From IMG/VR virus record IMGVR_UViG_3300034166_000560: DNA of 64,000 nt; one strand, 5' to 3'. Numbering within the stretch: position 1 is the first letter of the stretch; each line of letters begins with the position of its first letter. The position numbers and the translations under genes were made by a program. Origin of the DNA: a virus. A model generated the notes under the pieces. The model did no database searches. It saw nothing but the letters and a program-made list of their open reading frames with translations, and was not told the DNA's origin. Shown here piece by piece: positions 23,249 to 37,422 of this stretch.

Positions 23249-24251
23249 GTAAGTCAGCATTAAAGAAGTTCAAGAAGAATGATTATTCAGACCGTGACGA
23301 GTATCATGATGATCCTCGTGAACGTGAGAACAAGCGCAAGGCAAAGCGTGAACAACGTGCGCTAAAGACAAAAGATATTTCTTCTCTTGTCGAGGAAGAT
23401 TATGAATCTGGTGATGATTACCAGTTTATTTGGAATCAGGAAACTGACTAATGCCTATCTATAAGCTACGCAATACGCAGACTGAAGAAGAATGGGAAGA
23501 GCTAATTTCTATCTCTGAGATGGAACAGAAGTTAGCCGATCATCCTCATGTCGAACTTCTTATCAATGGAGCACCTATGGTTACTGGAACCATGGGAAAG
23601 AACACTCCCATGAAGACTAAGTATAAGGACTCTACTTCAGTAAAGAAACCTGTTCTAGATGCTACAAGTTATTCAGGAAACTAAATCAATGGATCCTTTA
23701 CAGTTTTGTTATTGGCTGCAAGGTTTTGCAGAATTAAACAGTGGCACACCACCAAACGATATGCAGTGGAAAGCTATTAGAGATCATCTAGCAACAGTCT
23801 TTAATAAGGTTACTCCATCATATCCTGGACTTGGTCCTGATTGGCAAAAGGAAATCATTAAAGATTGGAAGCCTAATCCAAGTTCTGCTCCAGAAAATCC
23901 ATATCCAAATAGAATAAATTTGCCACCTGTTTGGTATGGTCCAAATGTATCGCCTCCAACTACCCCATATACGGTTACTTGTAATAACTCAACAATGAGT
24001 ATTTGCTAATGCCTACATATAAGTTTTTAAATAATGAGACTGGCGAAGAATATGAGGACTTCATGAGCATCAGTGCACTTGAAGTTTACCTTGAAGAGAA
24101 TCCAAATGTAACACAACTCGTAAATGGCGCTCCTATGATCCATTCTGGCAGAGGCATGGGTAAACCCGATCAGGGTTTCCGTGATCTGCTTAAACATATG
24201 AAGAAGGGAAACCAAAAAGGTATTTCGAGGAGCACTATTAACACATTCTAG
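23245..24251 (+). CDS. Small hypothetical ORFs incl. two paralogous FmdB-like proteins (23451-23684, 24009-24251)
   Basis: Both paralogs MP.YK..N..T.EE.E...SIS..E..L...P.V..L.NGAPM. Confidence 0.55.
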
Positions 24252-24261
24252 TAGAGGAAAA

Positions 24262-25023
24262 ATGGAAGAAGAAACAAGAACACGTCGATTAACTCGCAAA
24301 GAAAAAAGACTTCTTCGTCAACAAGGTAAAGAACCAAAGGAAAATTACCAAGAGAAATTAAATTTTAATCTAAAACATTTTCATCCTCTTACAGAGAATC
24401 AGAAATTAGCATTTGATTCTTTTGATGACGATAAAAATCTAATGCTACATGGTATTGCTGGTACTGGTAAATCCTTTATGGCATTATACCTTTCTTTGAA
24501 ACAGATCCTCAGCGATCCAGAATGTATCTATAAGAAAGTTGTTATTGTAAGATCTGTTGTTCCTACTAGAGATATGGGATTCCTTCCTGGTAGTGACAGA
24601 GAAAAGACTAAAGTTTATGAAGCGCCTTACTATGCCATCTGTACCGAGTTGTTCGGTAGAGGTGATGCATACGAGTATCTAAAGAAGAGAAACGTAGTTG
24701 AGTTTATCTCTACTTCTTTTATCAGAGGCATTACACTCAACGATTGTATTGTCGTTGTTGATGAGATGCAGAATGCTACTCTTCACGAGTTGGATTCTGT
24801 TATTACTCGTATTGGTCACAACTGTAAGGTAGTATTCTGCGGAGACTTCAGACAGTCAGACTTCACAAGAGAACACGAGAAGAGCGGTCTAACCGACTTC
24901 ATGAGAGTGGTTCGCTCTATGAAATCTTTTGATCTAGTAGAATTCGAAGCCAAAGATATTGTTCGTTCTGCTCTTGTTAAAGAATACATCATCCTTAAAG
25001 ACAAGATGAGAATTATAACGTAG
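24262..25023 (+). CDS. phoH: PhoH-like ATPase
   Basis: GIAGTGKS, GFLPG, FIRGITL, VDEMQN, GDFRQSD, IVRS. Confidence 0.93.
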   Translation: MEEETRTRRLTRKEKRLLRQQGKEPKENYQEKLNFNLKHFHPLTENQKLAFDSFDDDKNLMLHGIAGTGKSFMALYLSLKQILSDPECIYKKVVIVRSVVPTRDMGFLPGSDREKTKVYEAPYYAICTELFGRGDAYEYLKKRNVVEFISTSFIRGITLNDCIVVVDEMQNATLHELDSVITRIGHNCKVVFCGDFRQSDFTREHEKSGLTDFMRVVRSMKSFDLVEFEAKDIVRSALVKEYIILKDKMRIIT

Positions 25024-28508: not shown

Positions 28509-29055
28509 CTGAGTATCCTAGATTACGAAAGTCTCGGGCGTAGATCTTTCGAACCATATCCACGCTTTCCGAATCATAATCATTATTATACTCTTCTTTT
28601 GAATAAGAGCCAACGTTTATTTTTGGTATACGAATGTTTAGATCTACCTCGAGCTCCCAGAGCTCTTCGTATCTGTAGATCTTATCCATCTCTGTTATAT
28701 CTTCTTCAAAGATATAAAAAGATTGATCGTATTTCATAAGAGGAGTTTTCTCGGTAACTTCTCCTACCATAATCATGGACAAAAAGTTTTTAAAAGATAT
28801 TTGTATTTGATTGAATCGCAAAAAATGATGATAATAACTATACGCTCTTGTGAAGGGATTTCTTACGACAGAGAACTTGAAGACTTCTGGAGTAATGTTA
28901 TTATTAAGTTTGAGAACATGATAAGGATCGTGACCGATATGCCATGTTCTTAACCATGGTTGTTCTCTAAGTTGAGACCTGATAGCGATGCCACCAGTCT
29001 TAGGTATATGAACAAAGAGAAGAGGGGGAAGATCCCCCTCTACATTAGTAATCAT
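28495..29055 (-). CDS. Sulfotransferase-family protein
   Basis: FVHIPKTGG; VRNPF.RAYS.Y. Confidence 0.8.
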   Translation of the reverse strand: MITNVEGDLPPLLFVHIPKTGGIAIRSQLREQPWLRTWHIGHDPYHVLKLNNNITPEVFKFSVVRNPFTRAYSYYHHFLRFNQIQISFKNFLSMIMVGEVTEKTPLMKYDQSFYIFEEDITEMDKIYRYEELWELEVDLNIRIPKINVGSYSKEEYNNDYDSESVDMVRKIYARDFRNLGYSDEFS

Positions 29056-30469
29056 AACGCTCGTTCATGATAGTGTCGAGCATAATCGATTCGGGAGTAA
29101 AGGTCTCTACGTTAGCCAAACCCTTCACCAGTGCTGGCGAGAATCCAGAAACAAGAGCAACTCCAGAAGTATCATACTTCACAGGCTGATTACCATACGC
29201 AGCATTTAGATTCCAGAACACGATCTTTGGTAGATCATAACCAGCATCCTGATACTTACGAGCAATCATCTGTAATGCGCTATCGTCGAAACGAGTGCAC
29301 TGGTTGAACTGCATGTCTGATAGAATAAGCAGCATGTCAGGCATTTCTTCCTGAGGCACATTACCCTTCTTAGCTACATCAAGAACCTTATCCAGAGCAC
29401 GGTGCAGATCAGTAGACATAGCCCACTTAGACTGAACCATCTGCTGGCACTTCTGAACGATATTACCGTTTAGGTGCAGCAACTGTGGGTTGTCGCTGAA
29501 AGTCAAGAAGGTATCCTTGAACGCTCCAGTGTTCTTGTCTGCAAGATACAGACCAAGAGACACAGCAACGTCAATGCAAGTAGTACCACTCTTTGAGTTG
29601 TATCCACCAGCAGGAGTGGTCATTGAACCAGAAACGTCAACCAAAGGTAGGATACGGGCATCCCCAACGAAGTTAGGAAGAGCATCCCACTGAGCCTGAA
29701 GATGTCCAAGTTCAGTGGCATCATAGTCGTTTGACCAACGATATGAACATAGACCCTTTAGAACATCGTAAGGATACACAGCACCAGCGTTCACCTTTAC
29801 GCCAGCTTCGCCCTTTACGAGCTTCTGAACATACTCAGCAAACTTTACAGAGTGCTTGTTGAATGCCTTCTTGTAACGAGAAGCAGCAAGAGAAGGAACC
29901 TTGTTGTAGTCGATCTCTTCCCACTGCTTTGCGCACATCTGAGTTTCAACAACGTTGGTTAGATTAACCAAAGTCTTACGATACTGCTTTGGAGTCATAC
30001 CAAGGAATGCACGTAGCTCTGCAGCCACTTCACCCTTACGAGGCATCCACTTAGCAACTAGACCAGCAGTATTCTGGTTAGACAATCCTTCACGGATAAA
30101 CTCGAACGCTTCCTTACGGACATCGCCCTTTGCAGTTAGGAGATCATCCCAACGACCAAGTTCCGGAACCTTATGCACGATACGAGCAGCAAGTGCAGGA
30201 TCGTTGTCGCATAGGTACTGGAAAATATCACGGAAGATCTTACGTTCACCAGATCCACCACGAGCATCACGTGCCCATAGAGCAATACGAGTTGCAAGTT
30301 CCTTGTTGGTAACATATGCAGCTACGAAAGCAGGGATGATATCCTTACCACGAGAAGCACCAATGTTGAAGTATAGATCAACTAGCGGAGACGCAGTTGA
30401 CTTCAGAGCCTTCATACCATTTTCAGTACGTGCTTCCTGATTCTTCACGGCATTAACAAAAGTAGACAT
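29045..30469 (-). CDS. TROVE/Ro60-like (DUF2828-type) helical + vWA protein
   Basis: TENG, RDARGG.GE, GRWDD, AKWMPR helical region; vWA MIDAS VDVSGSM, ILSDMQF, IVFWNL, VSGFS. Confidence 0.8.
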   Translation of the reverse strand: MSTFVNAVKNQEARTENGMKALKSTASPLVDLYFNIGASRGKDIIPAFVAAYVTNKELATRIALWARDARGGSGERKIFRDIFQYLCDNDPALAARIVHKVPELGRWDDLLTAKGDVRKEAFEFIREGLSNQNTAGLVAKWMPRKGEVAAELRAFLGMTPKQYRKTLVNLTNVVETQMCAKQWEEIDYNKVPSLAASRYKKAFNKHSVKFAEYVQKLVKGEAGVKVNAGAVYPYDVLKGLCSYRWSNDYDATELGHLQAQWDALPNFVGDARILPLVDVSGSMTTPAGGYNSKSGTTCIDVAVSLGLYLADKNTGAFKDTFLTFSDNPQLLHLNGNIVQKCQQMVQSKWAMSTDLHRALDKVLDVAKKGNVPQEEMPDMLLILSDMQFNQCTRFDDSALQMIARKYQDAGYDLPKIVFWNLNAAYGNQPVKYDTSGVALVSGFSPALVKGLANVETFTPESIMLDTIMNERYDY

Positions 30470-30487
30470 TTCACTTTCCTTTTCTAC

Positions 30488-30546
30488 AGATTGAACTTTG
30501 AGTCAAATTATCAGTTTGATTTTCATTGGATTGCTGAACTCAATCT
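30488..30546 (-). ncRNA. Array unit 1: Y-like scaffold with Ile-GAU anticodon stem-loop
   Basis: AGATTGA/TCAATCT closing stem, GTTCAGCAA, TCAAA-CTGATAA-TTTGA. Confidence 0.75.
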
Positions 30547-30555
30547 AAAATTAAC

Positions 30556-30664
30556 AGGATAGATTTTACGTGCTCTACCGACTGAGCTACTCCCCCATAG
30601 GGAAGGTGGGGCTCGAACCCACGACCACGGCTGTGTAAAAGCAAAACATTGCGGAAACTATCCT
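30556..30664 (-). ncRNA. Array unit 2: Y-like scaffold with circularly permuted tRNA-Val(UAC)
   Basis: AGGATAG/CTATCCT stem, TTTCCGCAA, then anticodon loop, T arm, closed acceptor stem and D arm. Confidence 0.85.
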
Positions 30665-30680
30665 AAAACTCTATATTACT

Positions 30681-30708
30681 ATTATACTACACTTTGCTTA
30701 GAAGTCAA
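30681..30708 (-). promoter_or_regulatory. Sigma70-type promoter inside the array
   Basis: TTGACT-16nt-TATAAT upstream of units 2, 1 and the TROVE-like gene. Confidence 0.7.
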
Positions 30709-30719
30709 GCAAAAATAAC

Positions 30720-30785
30720 AGGATAACATCTTTCTTCGATTACAAGTCGAGTGCTTATTCAGCGATGGTTTGCTGTAGTTATCCT
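30720..30785 (-). ncRNA. Array unit 3: scaffold with D-like arm and Thr-UGU anticodon stem-loop
   Basis: AGGATAAC/GTTATCCT, TACAGCAA, GCT-GAATA-AGC-A-CTCGA-CTTGTAA-TCGAA. Confidence 0.75.
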
Positions 30786-30794
30786 AGAACTAAC

Positions 30795-30845
30795 GGGATC
30801 AACTTGGCTTGTTTGTGAGCAACAGTTGAATGCTGAACTGATCCC
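30795..30845 (-). ncRNA. Array unit 4: minimal scaffold with small hairpin
   Basis: GGGATCA/TGATCCC, GTTCAGCAT, loop containing CTCACAA. Confidence 0.7.
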
Positions 30846-30860
30846 AAAACTTTATACAAC

Positions 30861-30967
30861 AGGATATATTTTTTAGCTCCATGGCTATTAACCACGATAG
30901 GATTTGAACCTATTATCTTCTGTAATAATACAGATGCTTCGACCGAAGTGTTTGCTGAAAATATCCT
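30861..30967 (-). ncRNA. Array unit 5: scaffold with tRNA body permuted at the D loop
   Basis: AGGATAT/ATATCCT, TTTCAGCAA, TCTGT/ACAGA arm, ATAGG-TTCAAAT-CCTAT, CGTGGTT-AAT-AGCCATG. Confidence 0.75.
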
Positions 30968-30977
30968 AAAACTAAAC

Positions 30978-31178
30978 TGGATGGTTGAAGGAATTTTTAT
31001 TATTGTTCTGGAGAGACCGATTAACTCGTACGAGTATATCCTTCAACTCTCCCTATCTAATGATTCTCACTAGCAATATTTTCTCTCACCGTAGTGGAGA
31101 AACTCTCTGAACAGTAAGAACCAAAGTTCTTACATCGGAGGAGCCTTACGACTCCGAGTGGTTTGCTGTATCCATCCA
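30978..31178 (-). ncRNA. Array unit 6: scaffold with 200-nt multi-hairpin cargo
   Basis: TGGATGG/CCATCCA, ATACAGCAA, GNRA and UNCG hairpins. Confidence 0.65.
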
Positions 31179-31187
31179 CAATAAAAC

Positions 31188-31242
31188 AGGATCAACTTGC
31201 ATTTTTCGTTCAAAGAAAAGTAGTTATTGCTGAACTGATCCT
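31188..31242 (-). ncRNA. Array unit 7: scaffold with Ser-UGA-like anticodon stem-loop
   Basis: AGGATCA/TGATCCT, GTTCAGCAA, TTTTC-TTTGAAC-GAAAA. Confidence 0.7.
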
Positions 31243-35766: not shown

Positions 35767-35868
35767 TGGTAGGCCAGGTAGGAGTTGCACCTACACGTTA
35801 TCCATTATCCGGATAATAGACAACAGCGCCCAGCGTTAGCGCCACGGTTACTATTACGTCACTGACCT
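35767..35868 (-). ncRNA. tRNA-like RNA with aberrant anticodon loop and very long V arm
   Basis: AGGTCAG/CTGGCCT-A-CCA, T arm GTAGG-TGCAACT-CCTAC, 12-13 bp V-arm hairpin. Confidence 0.75.
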
Positions 35869-36115: not shown

Positions 36116-36191
36116 TGGTAGGGGATGACAGGATTGAACTGCCGACCTTCGCCGTGTAAAAGCGTTGCTCTCCCAGCTGAGCTAATCCCCC
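36116..36191 (-). tRNA. tRNA-Val(UAC)
   Basis: Loop TTTACAC, CCA. Confidence 0.93.
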
Positions 36192-36404: not shown

Positions 36405-36480
36405 TGGATGCGATGCGTTGGAATTGCACCAACTTCTACTGGTTTATGAGACCAGCGAGATACTATACCTCCCGCCCGCA
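36405..36480 (-). tRNA. Atypical tRNA with CAU anticodon
   Basis: CTGGT-CTCATAA-ACCAG; bulged acceptor; T loop TGCAATT. Confidence 0.7.
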
Positions 36481-37330: not shown

Positions 37331-37422
37331 TGGTAGGGGATCCCGGATTCGAACCGAGTCGAGAACGCTAATCGGGCGCTGAAAGGTTTATAAAACCTCC
37401 CTGTGTACCAACACCATCCCCC
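37331..37422 (-). tRNA. Atypical tRNA with UAU anticodon and long V arm
   Basis: GAGGT-TTTATAA-ACCTT; mini D arm; ~24-nt variable region; TTCGAAT; CCA. Confidence 0.75.

What the first reader, a model, noticed from the sequence alone, without database searches (positions are those of the whole stretch)
30556..30664. Unit 2 holds a complete circularly permuted tRNA-Val(UAC) opened inside the anticodon stem
SEEN (- strand, 30642 to 30569): GCT-TTTACAC-AGCCG, TGGTC, GTGGG-TTCGAGC-CCCAC (T arm), CTTCCCT-AT-GGGGGAG (acceptor stem sealed by a 2-nt linker, no CCA end), TA, GCTC-AGTCGGTA-GAGC (D arm), A, CG. Joining the final CG to the initial GCT rebuilds a perfect CGGCT/AGCCG anticodon stem. The loop TTTACAC is identical to that of the phage's real tRNA-Val (36116-36191). 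An alternative TTTTAC/GTAAAA pairing could mask the anticodon. KNOWN: YrlA RNAs have the T-acceptor-D order but lack an anticodon loop. INFERENCE: an unchargeable full-shape tRNA mimic that keeps its anticodon. It could alternatively be a permuted pre-tRNA matured by ligation.
Basis: partly seen in the sequence, partly recalled or inferred. Interest (0 to 1): 0.85.

Follow-up and report, generated by a model that had tools for sequence, protein, structure and literature searches.

The report
Permuted tRNA-Val mimic on Ro60-like handle
This phage small-RNA gene encodes a complete valine-tRNA shape whose chain ends were moved into the anticodon stem and clamped by a conserved "handle" that probably docks the phage's Ro60-like ring protein; it belongs to a large family of anticodon-displaying tRNA mimics that I found in no paper or Rfam family.

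Summary
On the - strand, 30665-30555 reads: handle, CCGCAA bulge, 3-bp hairpin with loop UUUACAC, T arm, sealed acceptor, D arm, CG, handle. Joined at CG|GCU, ARAGORN calls it tRNA-Val(UAC); in native order it calls nothing.

It is not a one-off. I collected 99 distinct units of the same build from viral metagenome contigs. The stem split at 28|29 pairs in 90% of cells (27-28:42-43) and 72% (29-31:39-41), with many compensatory changes. It works only with a 7-nt loop, which carries U33, R37 and A38. After un-permutation 80 of 99 units score as tRNAs of many anticodons.

The units lie beside a DUF2828/vWA gene, here 29045-30469, whose model matches only Ro60 structures at the top. Published YrlA Y RNAs share the T-acceptor-D order but lack an anticodon loop, and they use a different Ro-binding motif.

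Best reading: a Ro-like-protein-bound, non-decoding tRNA mimic that displays an anticodon. Maturation to a working tRNA by ligation is unlikely. The partner and purpose (bait for anticodon nucleases, or a tether) are inferred, not shown.

This scan has noted the same RNA family before on other DNA. I found no publication or Rfam family for it.

The parts
30681..30708 (-). Sigma-70-like promoter (TTGACT, 16 nt, TATAAT) directly upstream of unit 2. It would drive unit 2, unit 1 and the Ro60-like gene.
   Evidence: 11 of 12 consensus matches. This is a consensus match only; no transcript data are available.
30658..30665 (-). Handle, 5' strand (UAGGAUAG). It pairs with 30562-30555.
   Evidence: 100 of 103 family units have a 6-9-bp terminal stem here, and it covaries (columns 3-9 with 136-142).
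30648..30657 (-). Unpaired bulge UUUCCGCAAU holding the family's conserved CNGCAA motif, the presumed protein-docking site.
   Evidence: C12, C15 and A16 are invariant, and A13, G14 and A17 are at least 90% conserved in 99 units. Protein docking is inferred.
30643..30647 (-). Connector GUUUU, which can pair with AAAAU at 30567-30563 (helix P1).
   Evidence: Read. Family-wide, this pairing is no better than composition predicts (2.49 vs 2.17 bp), so it is tentative.
30640..30642 (-). tRNA positions 29-31 (GCU), the 5' side of the anticodon mini-hairpin. The chain break lies just before it.
30633..30639 (-). 7-nt anticodon loop UUUACAC (U33, anticodon UAC, A37).
   Evidence: It is identical to the loop of tRNA-Val at 36116-36191. 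Family loops have U33 in 56/63, R37 in 61/63 and A38 in 57/63.
30628..30632 (-). Positions 39-43 (AGCCG), the continuous 3' strand of the anticodon stem. AGC pairs with GCU, and CG pairs with CG at 30570-30569.
   Evidence: helix 1 is 72% paired and helix 2 is 90.4% paired, with 19-55 double changes per pair.
30623..30627 (-). Variable loop UGGUC (positions 44-48).
30606..30622 (-). T arm GUGGG-UUCGAGC-CCCAC.
   Evidence: It is 99.6% paired in the family.
30590..30605 (-). Sealed acceptor: CUUCCCU (66-72), A73, U, GGGGGAG (1-7). Realistically it forms 6 bp plus a UAUG loop. No CCA is present.
30572..30589 (-). U8, A9 and the D arm GCUC-AGUCGGUA-GAGC.
30569..30571 (-). A26 and positions 27-28 (CG), which pair with 42-43. 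The chain leaves the tRNA body after 28.
30552..30568 (-). U, AAAAU (P1 3' strand), handle 3' strand CUAUCCUG and tail UUA.
   Evidence: The CUGU-type tail recurs in all units of the array.
29045..30469 (-). Gene for a 474-aa DUF2828 + DUF7788 (vWA) protein with a Ro60-like fold, the presumed protein partner.
   Evidence: Pfam. The AlphaFold model (pLDDT 75.7) has Ro60 chains as its 13 best Foldseek matches (9KOP TM 0.62, 1YVR TM 0.57). The MIDAS residues D278, S280 and S282 are invariant.
30484..31242 (-). Array of seven handle-framed units: 31242-31184, 31178-30974, 30967-30857, 30845-30791, 30785-30716, 30664-30552 and 30546-30484. The finding is the sixth, counted from the 5' end.

Best explanation
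Unit 2 is a non-coding RNA of a phage Y-RNA-like family.

Anatomy. An 8-bp terminal handle plus a conserved unpaired CNGCAA motif most likely docks the Ro60-like ring protein encoded 85 nt downstream. The handle carries a whole tRNA-Val(UAC) body as cargo. The chain ends of that body have been moved from the acceptor stem to the 5' strand of the anticodon stem, between nt 28 and 29. The continuous strand 39-43 pairs with two separate pieces. These are 29-31, giving a 3-bp hairpin with a true 7-nt anticodon loop, and 27-28, coming from the D-arm side. If the two stack, they rebuild a 5-bp anticodon stem with the handle branching off. The acceptor is sealed, so the RNA as transcribed cannot be charged or decode.

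Mechanism. The ribonucleoprotein would present a tRNA elbow and an anticodon loop to a tRNA-recognising factor while held on the Ro-like ring. It would act as a bait or a tether.

Shown: the sequence, the covarying structure, the family, and the gene linkage.

Inferred: protein binding, stacking at the branch, and the biological target.
For: - ARAGORN calls the un-permuted sequence tRNA-Val(tac) and calls nothing in native order.
- Rfam YrlA matches the T-acceptor-D core (42 bits, E 1e-7, model positions 23-87).
- 103 units of the same build were found in IMG/VR. With fixed geometry, 33 have 5/5 and 30 have 4/5 split-stem pairs. Other loop lengths or shifted partners give 0-5.
- RNAalifold independently predicts the handle, the 3-bp anticodon hairpin, and the T, acceptor and D arms.
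- On an unselected 99-sequence MAFFT alignment, 27-28:42-43 is 90.4% paired with 50-55 double changes per pair. 29-31:39-41 is 72% paired with 19-30 double changes. The whole structure is 90.5% paired, against 63% when shuffled and 41% when slid.
- 80 of 99 un-permuted units are called tRNAs. In native order the count is 0 of 100.
- 39 of 95 unit-bearing loci hold a DUF2828 homologue in the few kb fetched, against 3 of 112 control tRNA-cluster loci.
- The protein model matches Ro60 structures over its full length.
- The same handle occurs as a closed hairpin inserted at 29|30 in a normal-order, CCA-ended tRNA-like RNA of Synechococcus phage BUCT-ZZ01. An equivalent reading of a Cronobacter phage S13 RNA rests on my eye alone. 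Unit 2 therefore looks like one circular permutation of a shared design.
- Bas63 gp130, a Felix O1-type Ro60-like protein encoded next to the tRNA genes, counters the Ppl defence system (PMC11482910).
Against: - No expression or binding data exist for this RNA.
- Nearest-neighbour energies do not favour the model on its own. The MFE is -35.1 kcal/mol with local hairpins, the branched tRNA model is -24.7, and the masked form is -28.3. The pair probability of the anticodon hairpin is 0.002.
- A 3-bp hairpin needs stacking or protein to be stable.
- The connector helix P1 is not supported beyond base composition.
- About one third of family units have no anticodon hairpin, so the loop is not required for the family's core function.
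- UAC occurs only once among 63 loops, so no Val-specific role is indicated.
Confidence: 0.75

Rival explanations
1. The acceptor hairpin is opened in vivo. RNase P cuts 5' of G1, the 3' side is trimmed, and CCA is added after A73. The result is a nicked two-piece RNA that stays on the Ro-like protein, has a genuine tRNA acceptor end, and might even be charged by ValRS.
For: M. smegmatis YrlA, which has a 7-bp acceptor, is cut by RNase P and gains CCA in vivo, and both halves stay bound to Rsr (PMC4201824). Unit 2 has a nominal 7-bp acceptor, A73, A35 and C36. 13 of 103 family units encode NCCA directly after the acceptor 3' strand, against about 1.5 expected. Normal-order relatives have open, CCA-ended acceptors.
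Against: The linker here is only AU, so the stem is effectively 6 bp plus a tetraloop. That resembles Salmonella YrlA, which is not cut. Many relatives close the stem with UUCG, GAAA or GUAA tetraloops. No CCA-adding enzyme gene lies in the 90-kb record, although the record is only 54% complete and the host enzyme would do.
Confidence: 0.12
2. It is a permuted tRNA gene. The transcript's ends are joined at 28|29, the handle is discarded, and the acceptor linker is removed to give a working tRNA-Val.
For: Un-permutation gives a flawless cloverleaf. Permuted tRNA genes matured through circular intermediates exist in Cyanidioschyzon merolae (my own knowledge).
Against: The handle is conserved and is shared with six sister units whose cargo is not a tRNA. 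The junction has no bulge-helix-bulge motif: one unpaired U on one side and none on the other. No RtcB or Rnl2-type ligase was found in the held record. A normal tRNA-Val(UAC) already exists at 36116-36191. One third of the family lacks any anticodon hairpin.
Confidence: 0.03
3. The anticodon loop is not displayed. UUUUAC (30640-30635) pairs with GUAAAA (30569-30564), extending a plain YrlA-like stem, or it toggles between masked and open states.
For: The 6-bp helix exists. It scores -28.3 against -24.7 kcal/mol for the open branched form.
Against: Only 5 of 63 relatives can form a helix of this kind of 5 bp or more. In contrast, the 3-bp hairpin and the 7-nt loop signature are conserved with compensatory changes. 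The masked form would break the covarying 27-28:42-43 pairs.
Confidence: 0.06
4. It is a decaying, rearranged tRNA pseudogene with no function.
For: tRNA clusters of large phages do hold odd tRNA-like remnants.
Against: All stems are intact. The design recurs with compensatory changes in about 100 distinct sequences and is linked to one protein family.
Confidence: 0.02

Closest known systems
YrlA Y RNAs with Rsr/Ro60 (Rfam RF02553; Chen et al. 2014, PMC4201824; structure in Wang et al. 2018, bioRxiv 10.1101/312249)
   Same: Both are encoded next to a Ro60-type gene. Both have a terminal stem formed by the 5' and 3' ends. Both have a tRNA-like domain in the order T arm, closed acceptor-like hairpin, D arm. 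The core matches the YrlA model (42 bits, E 1e-7).
   Different: Published YrlA 'lacks the anticodon loop', whereas unit 2 keeps a 3-bp hairpin with a canonical 7-nt loop. The match covers only model positions 23-87 and lies below the gathering score of 69 bits. The Ro-binding part uses CNGCAA, not the GNCGAA(N)G motif. The partner protein is Pfam DUF2828/DUF7788, not TROVE. The unit is one of seven in tandem.
Deinococcus radiodurans Yrn1
   Same: It is a Y RNA that has been modelled with an 'anticodon arm' (5-bp stem) in addition to T-like and D-like features.
   Different: Yrn1 is in normal order, not permuted. Its loop has 6 nt. It has no V arm, and its D arm is doubtful.
Normal-order tRNA-like RNAs carrying the same handle: Synechococcus phage BUCT-ZZ01 (L146 3211-3324); Cronobacter phage S13 (L147 3395-3637, annotated tRNA-Ser and tRNA-OTHER)
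   Same: They share the stem plus (U)UCAGCA/CUGCAA handle. In BUCT-ZZ01 the branch is in the 5' strand of the anticodon stem (29|30), followed by a mini-hairpin with a 7-nt anticodon loop, and the RNA lies beside a DUF2828 gene. I read S13 the same way (28|29).
   Different: There the handle is a closed hairpin and the acceptor is open with CCA. In unit 2 the handle is open and the acceptor is closed. The S13 parse is by eye only.
Circularly permuted tRNA genes of Cyanidioschyzon merolae (my own knowledge)
   Same: The 3' half is encoded upstream of the 5' half, with the acceptor strands joined by a short linker.
   Different: Those are matured into working tRNAs through a bulge-helix-bulge junction and a circular intermediate. 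Here there is no such motif, the flanks form a conserved handle shared with non-tRNA RNAs, and the setting is bacterial/phage.
Dictyostelium Class I RNAs (Rfam RF01414; Kjellin et al. 2021, PMC7919456)
   Same: Both have a short stem joining the 5' and 3' ends, an adjacent unpaired 11-nt motif, and a 3' CUGU. The near-invariant positions T3, C6, C9, A10 and A11 are all met by AGUUUCCGCAA of unit 2. Sister unit 1 gives a weak RF01414 hit (16.9 bits, E 4.7).
   Different: Class I RNAs are eukaryotic, 42-65 nt, have variable non-tRNA cargo, and have an RRM protein as their known binder. The likeness is weak statistically and no homology is shown.
Thermus phage phiLo phiRo60 with Yrl1/Yrl2 (PMC12135203)
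   Same: It is a phage-encoded Ro60 ring with Y-like RNAs encoded just upstream. It is the best structural match of the protein here.
   Different: Yrl1 and Yrl2 were defined by a CGAA bulge motif. No tRNA-like or anticodon features are reported in the passages read.

Membership tests
YrlA (Rfam RF02553) | Score at or above Rfam's gathering threshold (69 bits) over the whole model | tested here: not met
   42 bits over model positions 23-87 of 114. Relatives score 36-46 bits.
YrlA (Rfam RF02553) | tRNA-like domain in the order T arm, closed acceptor-like stem, D arm | tested here: met
   cmscan alignment. The arms are 98-100% paired in 99 relatives.
YrlA (Rfam RF02553) | Encoded next to a Ro60/Rsr orthologue | tested here: met
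   The gene 29045-30469 has a Ro60-like fold. By Pfam it is DUF2828/DUF7788, not TROVE. Linkage is 39/95 against 3/112.
YrlA (Rfam RF02553) | Ro-binding helix with the conserved GNCGAA(N)G motif | tested here: not met
   The unit has UUUCCGCAAU, and the family consensus is CAGCAA. The YrlA motif is as given in PMC4201824.
YrlA (Rfam RF02553) | No anticodon loop: the anticodon-stem equivalent runs straight into the Ro-binding module | tested here: not met
   A 3-bp hairpin with a 7-nt loop is present and conserved.
Canonical tRNA (RF00005) | Contiguous cloverleaf recognised by tRNA finders | tested here: not met
   In native order ARAGORN finds nothing and Rfam tRNA gives 17.2 bits against a threshold of 29. 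It passes only after un-permutation.
Canonical tRNA (RF00005) | Free 5' end at position 1 and a 3' end at 73-CCA | tested here: not met
   The acceptor strands are joined by AU and no CCA is encoded. Post-transcriptional opening was not testable.
Permuted tRNA genes (C. merolae type) | Bulge-helix-bulge motif at the junction of the transcript ends | tested here: not met
   The flanks are GUUUU|GCU and CG|U-AAAAU, with no 3-nt bulges.
Permuted tRNA genes (C. merolae type) | Circular intermediate and a mature, ligated tRNA | not testable with these tools
   No RNA reads were obtainable.
CNGCAA-handle phage RNA family (uncatalogued; defined here and in earlier notes of this scan) | 6-9-bp terminal stem, then 0-3 nt, then CNGCA(A/T), with the 3' strand followed by G(U/A) | tested here: met
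   Unit 2 has an 8-bp stem, UUU, CCGCAA, then CUAUCCUG-UUA. 100 of 103 units share this build.
Dictyostelium Class I RNA (RF01414) | Rfam gathering score of 41.5 bits | tested here: not met
   There is no hit on unit 2. Sister unit 1 scores 16.9 bits, E 4.7.

The most novel reading that the evidence does not exclude
The array is a panel of anticodon baits. Each handle-bearing RNA, held on the Ro60-like ring, would display a different authentic anticodon loop: Val-UAC on a full tRNA body in unit 2, and Thr-UGU in unit 3. First-reader notes, which I did not check, report further loops in other units. The particle would capture, sense or neutralise host enzymes that read or cut tRNA anticodons, such as anticodon-nuclease defence systems. 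Loop identity would turn over between related phages as the hosts' nucleases change. The orthologous unit shows Thr-UGU in L001 and L002.
Probability: 0.25. Interest if true: 0.9.

Novelty: new variant of a known kind. Interest (0 to 1): 0.72.

Why it matters
Y RNAs and Ro60 are conserved from bacteria to humans, yet the role of the tRNA-like module of bacterial Y RNAs is still unknown. The published module explicitly lacks an anticodon loop.

This unit and about 60 relatives show that a large phage branch of the family keeps a genuine, covarying anticodon arm. It does so by branching the handle out of the anticodon stem, and the displayed anticodon varies between phages. That points to a partner that reads anticodon loops.

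The question is testable in cultured phages. Felix O1/Bas63, Cronobacter phage S13 and Synechococcus phage BUCT-ZZ01 carry the same handle and protein. For Bas63 a counter-defence phenotype of the protein is already reported.

It also matters for annotation. Normal-order members are currently annotated as tRNA-Ser or tRNA-OTHER, and permuted ones are missed altogether.

Tried and rejected
There are therefore no transcript ends, no test of RNase P cleavage, and no test for a ligated junction.
- Thermodynamic folding of the single sequence does not recover the branched tRNA model. I rely on comparative data instead and list this as evidence against.
- Connector helix P1 (GUUUU/AAAAU): I expected covariation. 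Partner-shuffled controls pair almost as well (2.17 against 2.49 bp). I keep it only as a possibility.
- Origin from the phage's own tRNA-Val: identity is 53/73 with a 10-nt identical run, but tRNA-Ala scores 55/73 with gaps. Descent from tRNA-Val is not established.
- RNA-ligase and CCA-enzyme genes in the genome record: none were found. The record is only 54% complete, so this is weak.
- Sequence search of the protein profile against PDB gave only E 0.047 to phiLo Ro60. The fold search was needed to establish the likeness.
- The blastn search of 30200-31100, which includes the array, against cultured phages matched only the coding part of the query; nothing matched the RNAs.
- Literature: searches for DUF2828, for Ro60 with phage and anticodon, and for permuted tRNA with phage found no description of this RNA class. 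The Sim et al. 2020 review could not be read.
- The third handle unit of phage S13 and the Felix O1 permuted unit did not parse cleanly into a 7-nt anticodon loop by eye. I do not count them as members of the anticodon-bearing subclass.

Full report
**What is there.** Read on the - strand, window 30665-30555 contains the following, in order:

- UAGGAUAG, the handle 5' strand
- UUUCCGCAAU
- GUUUU
- GCU-UUUACAC-AGC, then CG
- UGGUC
- GUGGG-UUCGAGC-CCCAC, the T arm
- CUUCCCU-AU-GGGGGAG, the acceptor strands in 3'-then-5' order
- UA, then GCUC-AGUCGGUA-GAGC, the D arm
- A, CG, U, AAAAU
- CUAUCCUG, the handle 3' strand, then UUA

I joined 30596..30569 to 30642..30598. ARAGORN calls the product a 73-nt tRNA-Val(tac) with a perfect CGGCU/AGCCG anticodon stem and all the usual tertiary-contact nucleotides. 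The native order gives no call. The string GCUUUUACAC is identical in the phage's own tRNA-Val at 36116-36191, and overall colinear identity is 53/73.

Two details need correcting. A 7-bp acceptor cannot be closed by a 2-nt loop. The physical form is 6 bp plus a UAUG loop, like the 6-bp stem of Salmonella YrlA. The UUUUAC/GUAAAA "masking" helix does exist, but it is peculiar to this sequence.

**Context.** The unit is one of seven tandem units at 31242-30484 on the - strand. Each is framed by a terminal stem, a CNGCA(A/U) motif just after the 5' strand, and G(U/A) after the 3' strand. A strong sigma-70-like promoter at 30708-30681 sits directly upstream of unit 2.

The array ends 14 nt before a 474-aa ORF (29045-30469) that is DUF2828 + DUF7788 by Pfam. 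A 10-sequence AlphaFold model of this protein (pLDDT 75.7) has Ro60 structures as its 13 best PDB matches. These include Thermus phage phiLo Ro60 (TM 0.62) and Xenopus Ro (TM 0.57), with E from 2e-10 to 1e-6. The vWA MIDAS residues are invariant.

Homologues of the protein occur in 701 cultured-phage records. They include Felix O1-type, KVP40-type, Listeria, Staphylococcus and Campylobacter phages. In mycobacteriophages the gene is annotated "Ro-like RNA binding protein".

The genome record is a 90-kb IMG/VR contig estimated to be 54% complete.

**Is the split anticodon arm real?** Close relatives (L001, L002-5, L013) carry an orthologous unit in which the split stem changes in a compensatory way:

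- Window: CG|GCU ... AGCCG
- L001: CG|GGA ... UCCCG
- L002: CU|CGA ... UCGAG

Pattern scans of IMG/VR gave 103 units with the CNGCA motif, a T arm, a closed acceptor of at least 6 bp, and a D arm. I imposed fixed geometry: a 5-nt variable loop, a 7-nt loop, and a split after position 28.

| Test | Units with 5/5 pairs |
|---|---|
| Fixed geometry as above | 33 (a further 30 have 4/5) |
| Loop length of 4-6 or 8-10 nt | 1-5 |
| 27-28 partner shifted | 0-3 |

Among the 63 good units, the loop has U33 in 56, a purine at 37 in 61, and A38 in 57 (all).

RNAalifold on 33 of the units independently returns the handle, the 3-bp hairpin, and the T, acceptor and D arms. I then used an unselected MAFFT alignment of all 99 distinct units, which was not fitted to any structure.

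- 27-28:42-43 is 90.4% paired, with 50-55 double changes per pair.
- 29-31:39-41 is 72% paired, with 19-30 double changes per pair. About a quarter of the rows simply lack the hairpin.
- The whole structure is 90.5% paired, against 63% when shuffled and 41% when slid.

After un-permutation, ARAGORN of 99 units tRNAs, including 33 of 33 units with 5/5 pairs. The calls cover many anticodons: Thr-UGU 9, Lys-UUU 7, Asn-GUU 6, Ile-GAU 5, and Val-UAC only here. In native order 0 of 100 are called.

The feature is therefore a conserved design and not a coincidence of this window.

**Link to the protein.** 39 of 95 loci that hold such a unit also hold a DUF2828 homologue within the few kb fetched, often within 1 kb. 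Among control viral tRNA-cluster loci the count is 3 of 112.

**The same design in normal order.** In Synechococcus phage BUCT-ZZ01, tRNA-like RNAs next to the DUF2828 gene keep an open, CCA-ended acceptor. They carry the handle as a closed hairpin (CAUUCU-GUAA-AGAAUG followed by AAUUCUGCAA) inserted in the 5' strand of the anticodon stem. A mini-hairpin with a 7-nt loop follows (ACG|GC-CUGUUAA-GCCGU). By eye, Cronobacter phage S13 has CU|UCC-AUUCCAA-GGAAG. Rfam's tRNA model spans these 113-121-nt RNAs, and they are annotated tRNA-Ser and tRNA-OTHER. Six more normal-order examples were found in IMG/VR. Unit 2 looks like a circular permutation of this design, with the handle open and the acceptor closed. 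That relationship is an inference.

**Comparison with what is known.** The T-acceptor-D core hits Rfam YrlA at 42 bits, against a gathering score of 69. The match covers only model positions 23-87, and relatives behave the same way. Chen et al. 2014 described YrlA next to Ro60 in more than 250 bacteria and phages. Wang et al. 2018 state that YrlA "lacks the anticodon loop" and a free CCA end. D. radiodurans Yrn1 was modelled with an anticodon-like arm, but in normal order and with a 6-nt loop.

The handle here uses CNGCAA rather than the GNCGAA(N)G motif. It meets all five near-invariant positions of the 11-nt motif of Dictyostelium Class I RNAs and also has the 3' CUGU. I treat that resemblance as a lead only.

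I found no paper describing anticodon-bearing, handle-branched Y-like RNAs. The nearest is a remark that some Bas63 "tRNA genes" next to the Ro60-like gp130 might be Y RNAs, together with the finding that gp130 counters the Ppl defence. In Felix O1 itself, four handle units lie unannotated between tRNA genes.

**Mechanism.** The most likely reading (about 0.75) is a Ro-like-protein-bound, non-decoding tRNA mimic that displays an elbow and an anticodon loop.

Maturation by ligation is unlikely (about 0.03):

- The handle is shared with non-tRNA cargo.
- There is no bulge-helix-bulge junction.
- Relatives often seal the acceptor with tetraloops.
- No RNA ligase was found in the held record.
- A normal tRNA-Val is present.

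Opening by RNase P with CCA addition, as in M. smegmatis YrlA, remains possible (about 0.12). 13 of 103 relatives encode NCCA after the acceptor. The 2-nt linker here argues against it for this unit.

**Weak points.** No transcript or binding data are available. Single-sequence thermodynamics prefers other folds by 3-10 kcal/mol. The connector helix is unsupported. A third of the family does without an anticodon hairpin.

**Earlier notes of this scan.** The scan's index holds many AI notes on the same RNA family in other genomes. They include a permuted mimic with a Lys-UUU loop and a giant-virus normal-order form. I treated them as leads. The tests above are my own.

**Verdict.** The unit is a new variant of the YrlA/Y-RNA kind and a member of a large uncatalogued phage family. 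Its biological target is still unknown.

Noticed in passing
family-wide (63 units from IMG/VR loci; window unit 3 at 30751-30735): The displayed anticodons are biased towards U36, which marks tRNAs that decode ANN codons. 36 of 63 units have U36, against 308 of 962 ordinary tRNAs in the same loci (odds ratio 2.8, p 9e-5; the sequences are not independent). Thr-UGU, Lys-UUU, Asn-GUU and Ile-GAU lead the list. These tRNAs carry t6A37 (my own knowledge). Unit 2 (UAC) is an exception.
   Followed up: partly
L147 3395-3637 (Cronobacter phage S13); L146 3080-3324 (Synechococcus phage BUCT-ZZ01): RNAs of 113-121 nt annotated tRNA-Ser and tRNA-OTHER, or left unannotated, are tRNA bodies with a handle hairpin of about 45 nt inserted in the anticodon stem. 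They are probably Ro-like-protein partners, not intron-bearing tRNAs.
   Followed up: partly
L378 5255-6091 (Salmonella phage Felix O1, record 23872-24708): Four unannotated handle units (AGACCnn-UUACAGCAA ... nnGGUCUGG) lie between the tRNA genes downstream of the Ro60-like ORF86. Some are overlapped by doubtful short ORFs (ORF91, ORF94). One unit carries a permuted tRNA-like body.
   Followed up: partly
L379 2960-3212 (Mycobacterium phage DirkDirk): Three handle units with (A/G)CAGCAA lie downstream of the 'Ro-like RNA binding protein' gene. The middle one is a permuted tRNA-like unit without an evident anticodon loop. The CAGCAA handle therefore extends to mycobacteriophage Ro-like loci.
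   Followed up: no
family-wide; L001 ~645-665; L002 2380-2400; L147 ~3740: 13 of 103 permuted units encode NCCA directly after the acceptor 3' strand, against about 1.5 expected by chance. This is either a relic of capture from CCA-encoding tRNA genes or a sign that some acceptors are opened.
   Followed up: partly
window 30487-30545 (unit 1) and all handles: The handle (stem, 11-nt motif ending CAGCAA, 3' CUGU) resembles Dictyostelium Class I RNAs. The Rfam RF01414 hit scores 16.9 bits, E 4.7. DUF2828 proteins also occur in eukaryotes (my own knowledge).
   Followed up: partly
window 31178-30974 (- strand): One unit of the array has a 200-nt cargo with several hairpins and no tRNA features. 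The same handle therefore also carries a large unrelated RNA.
   Followed up: no
window 37331-37422, 35767-35868, 36409-36475 (- strand): There are three odd tRNA-like genes in the main tRNA cluster: a 92-nt 'tRNA-Ile(tat)', a CCA-ended RNA with a long extra arm, and a 67-nt Rfam-only tRNA hit (31.8 bits). I saw no CNGCAA handle in any of them.
   Followed up: partly
L002 2571-2671; L008 1453-1558: Some units hold a normal-order D arm, anticodon arm and T arm (Lys-UUU, Gly-UCC), with the handle taking the place of the acceptor stem. This is a third way of mounting a tRNA body on the same handle.
   Followed up: no
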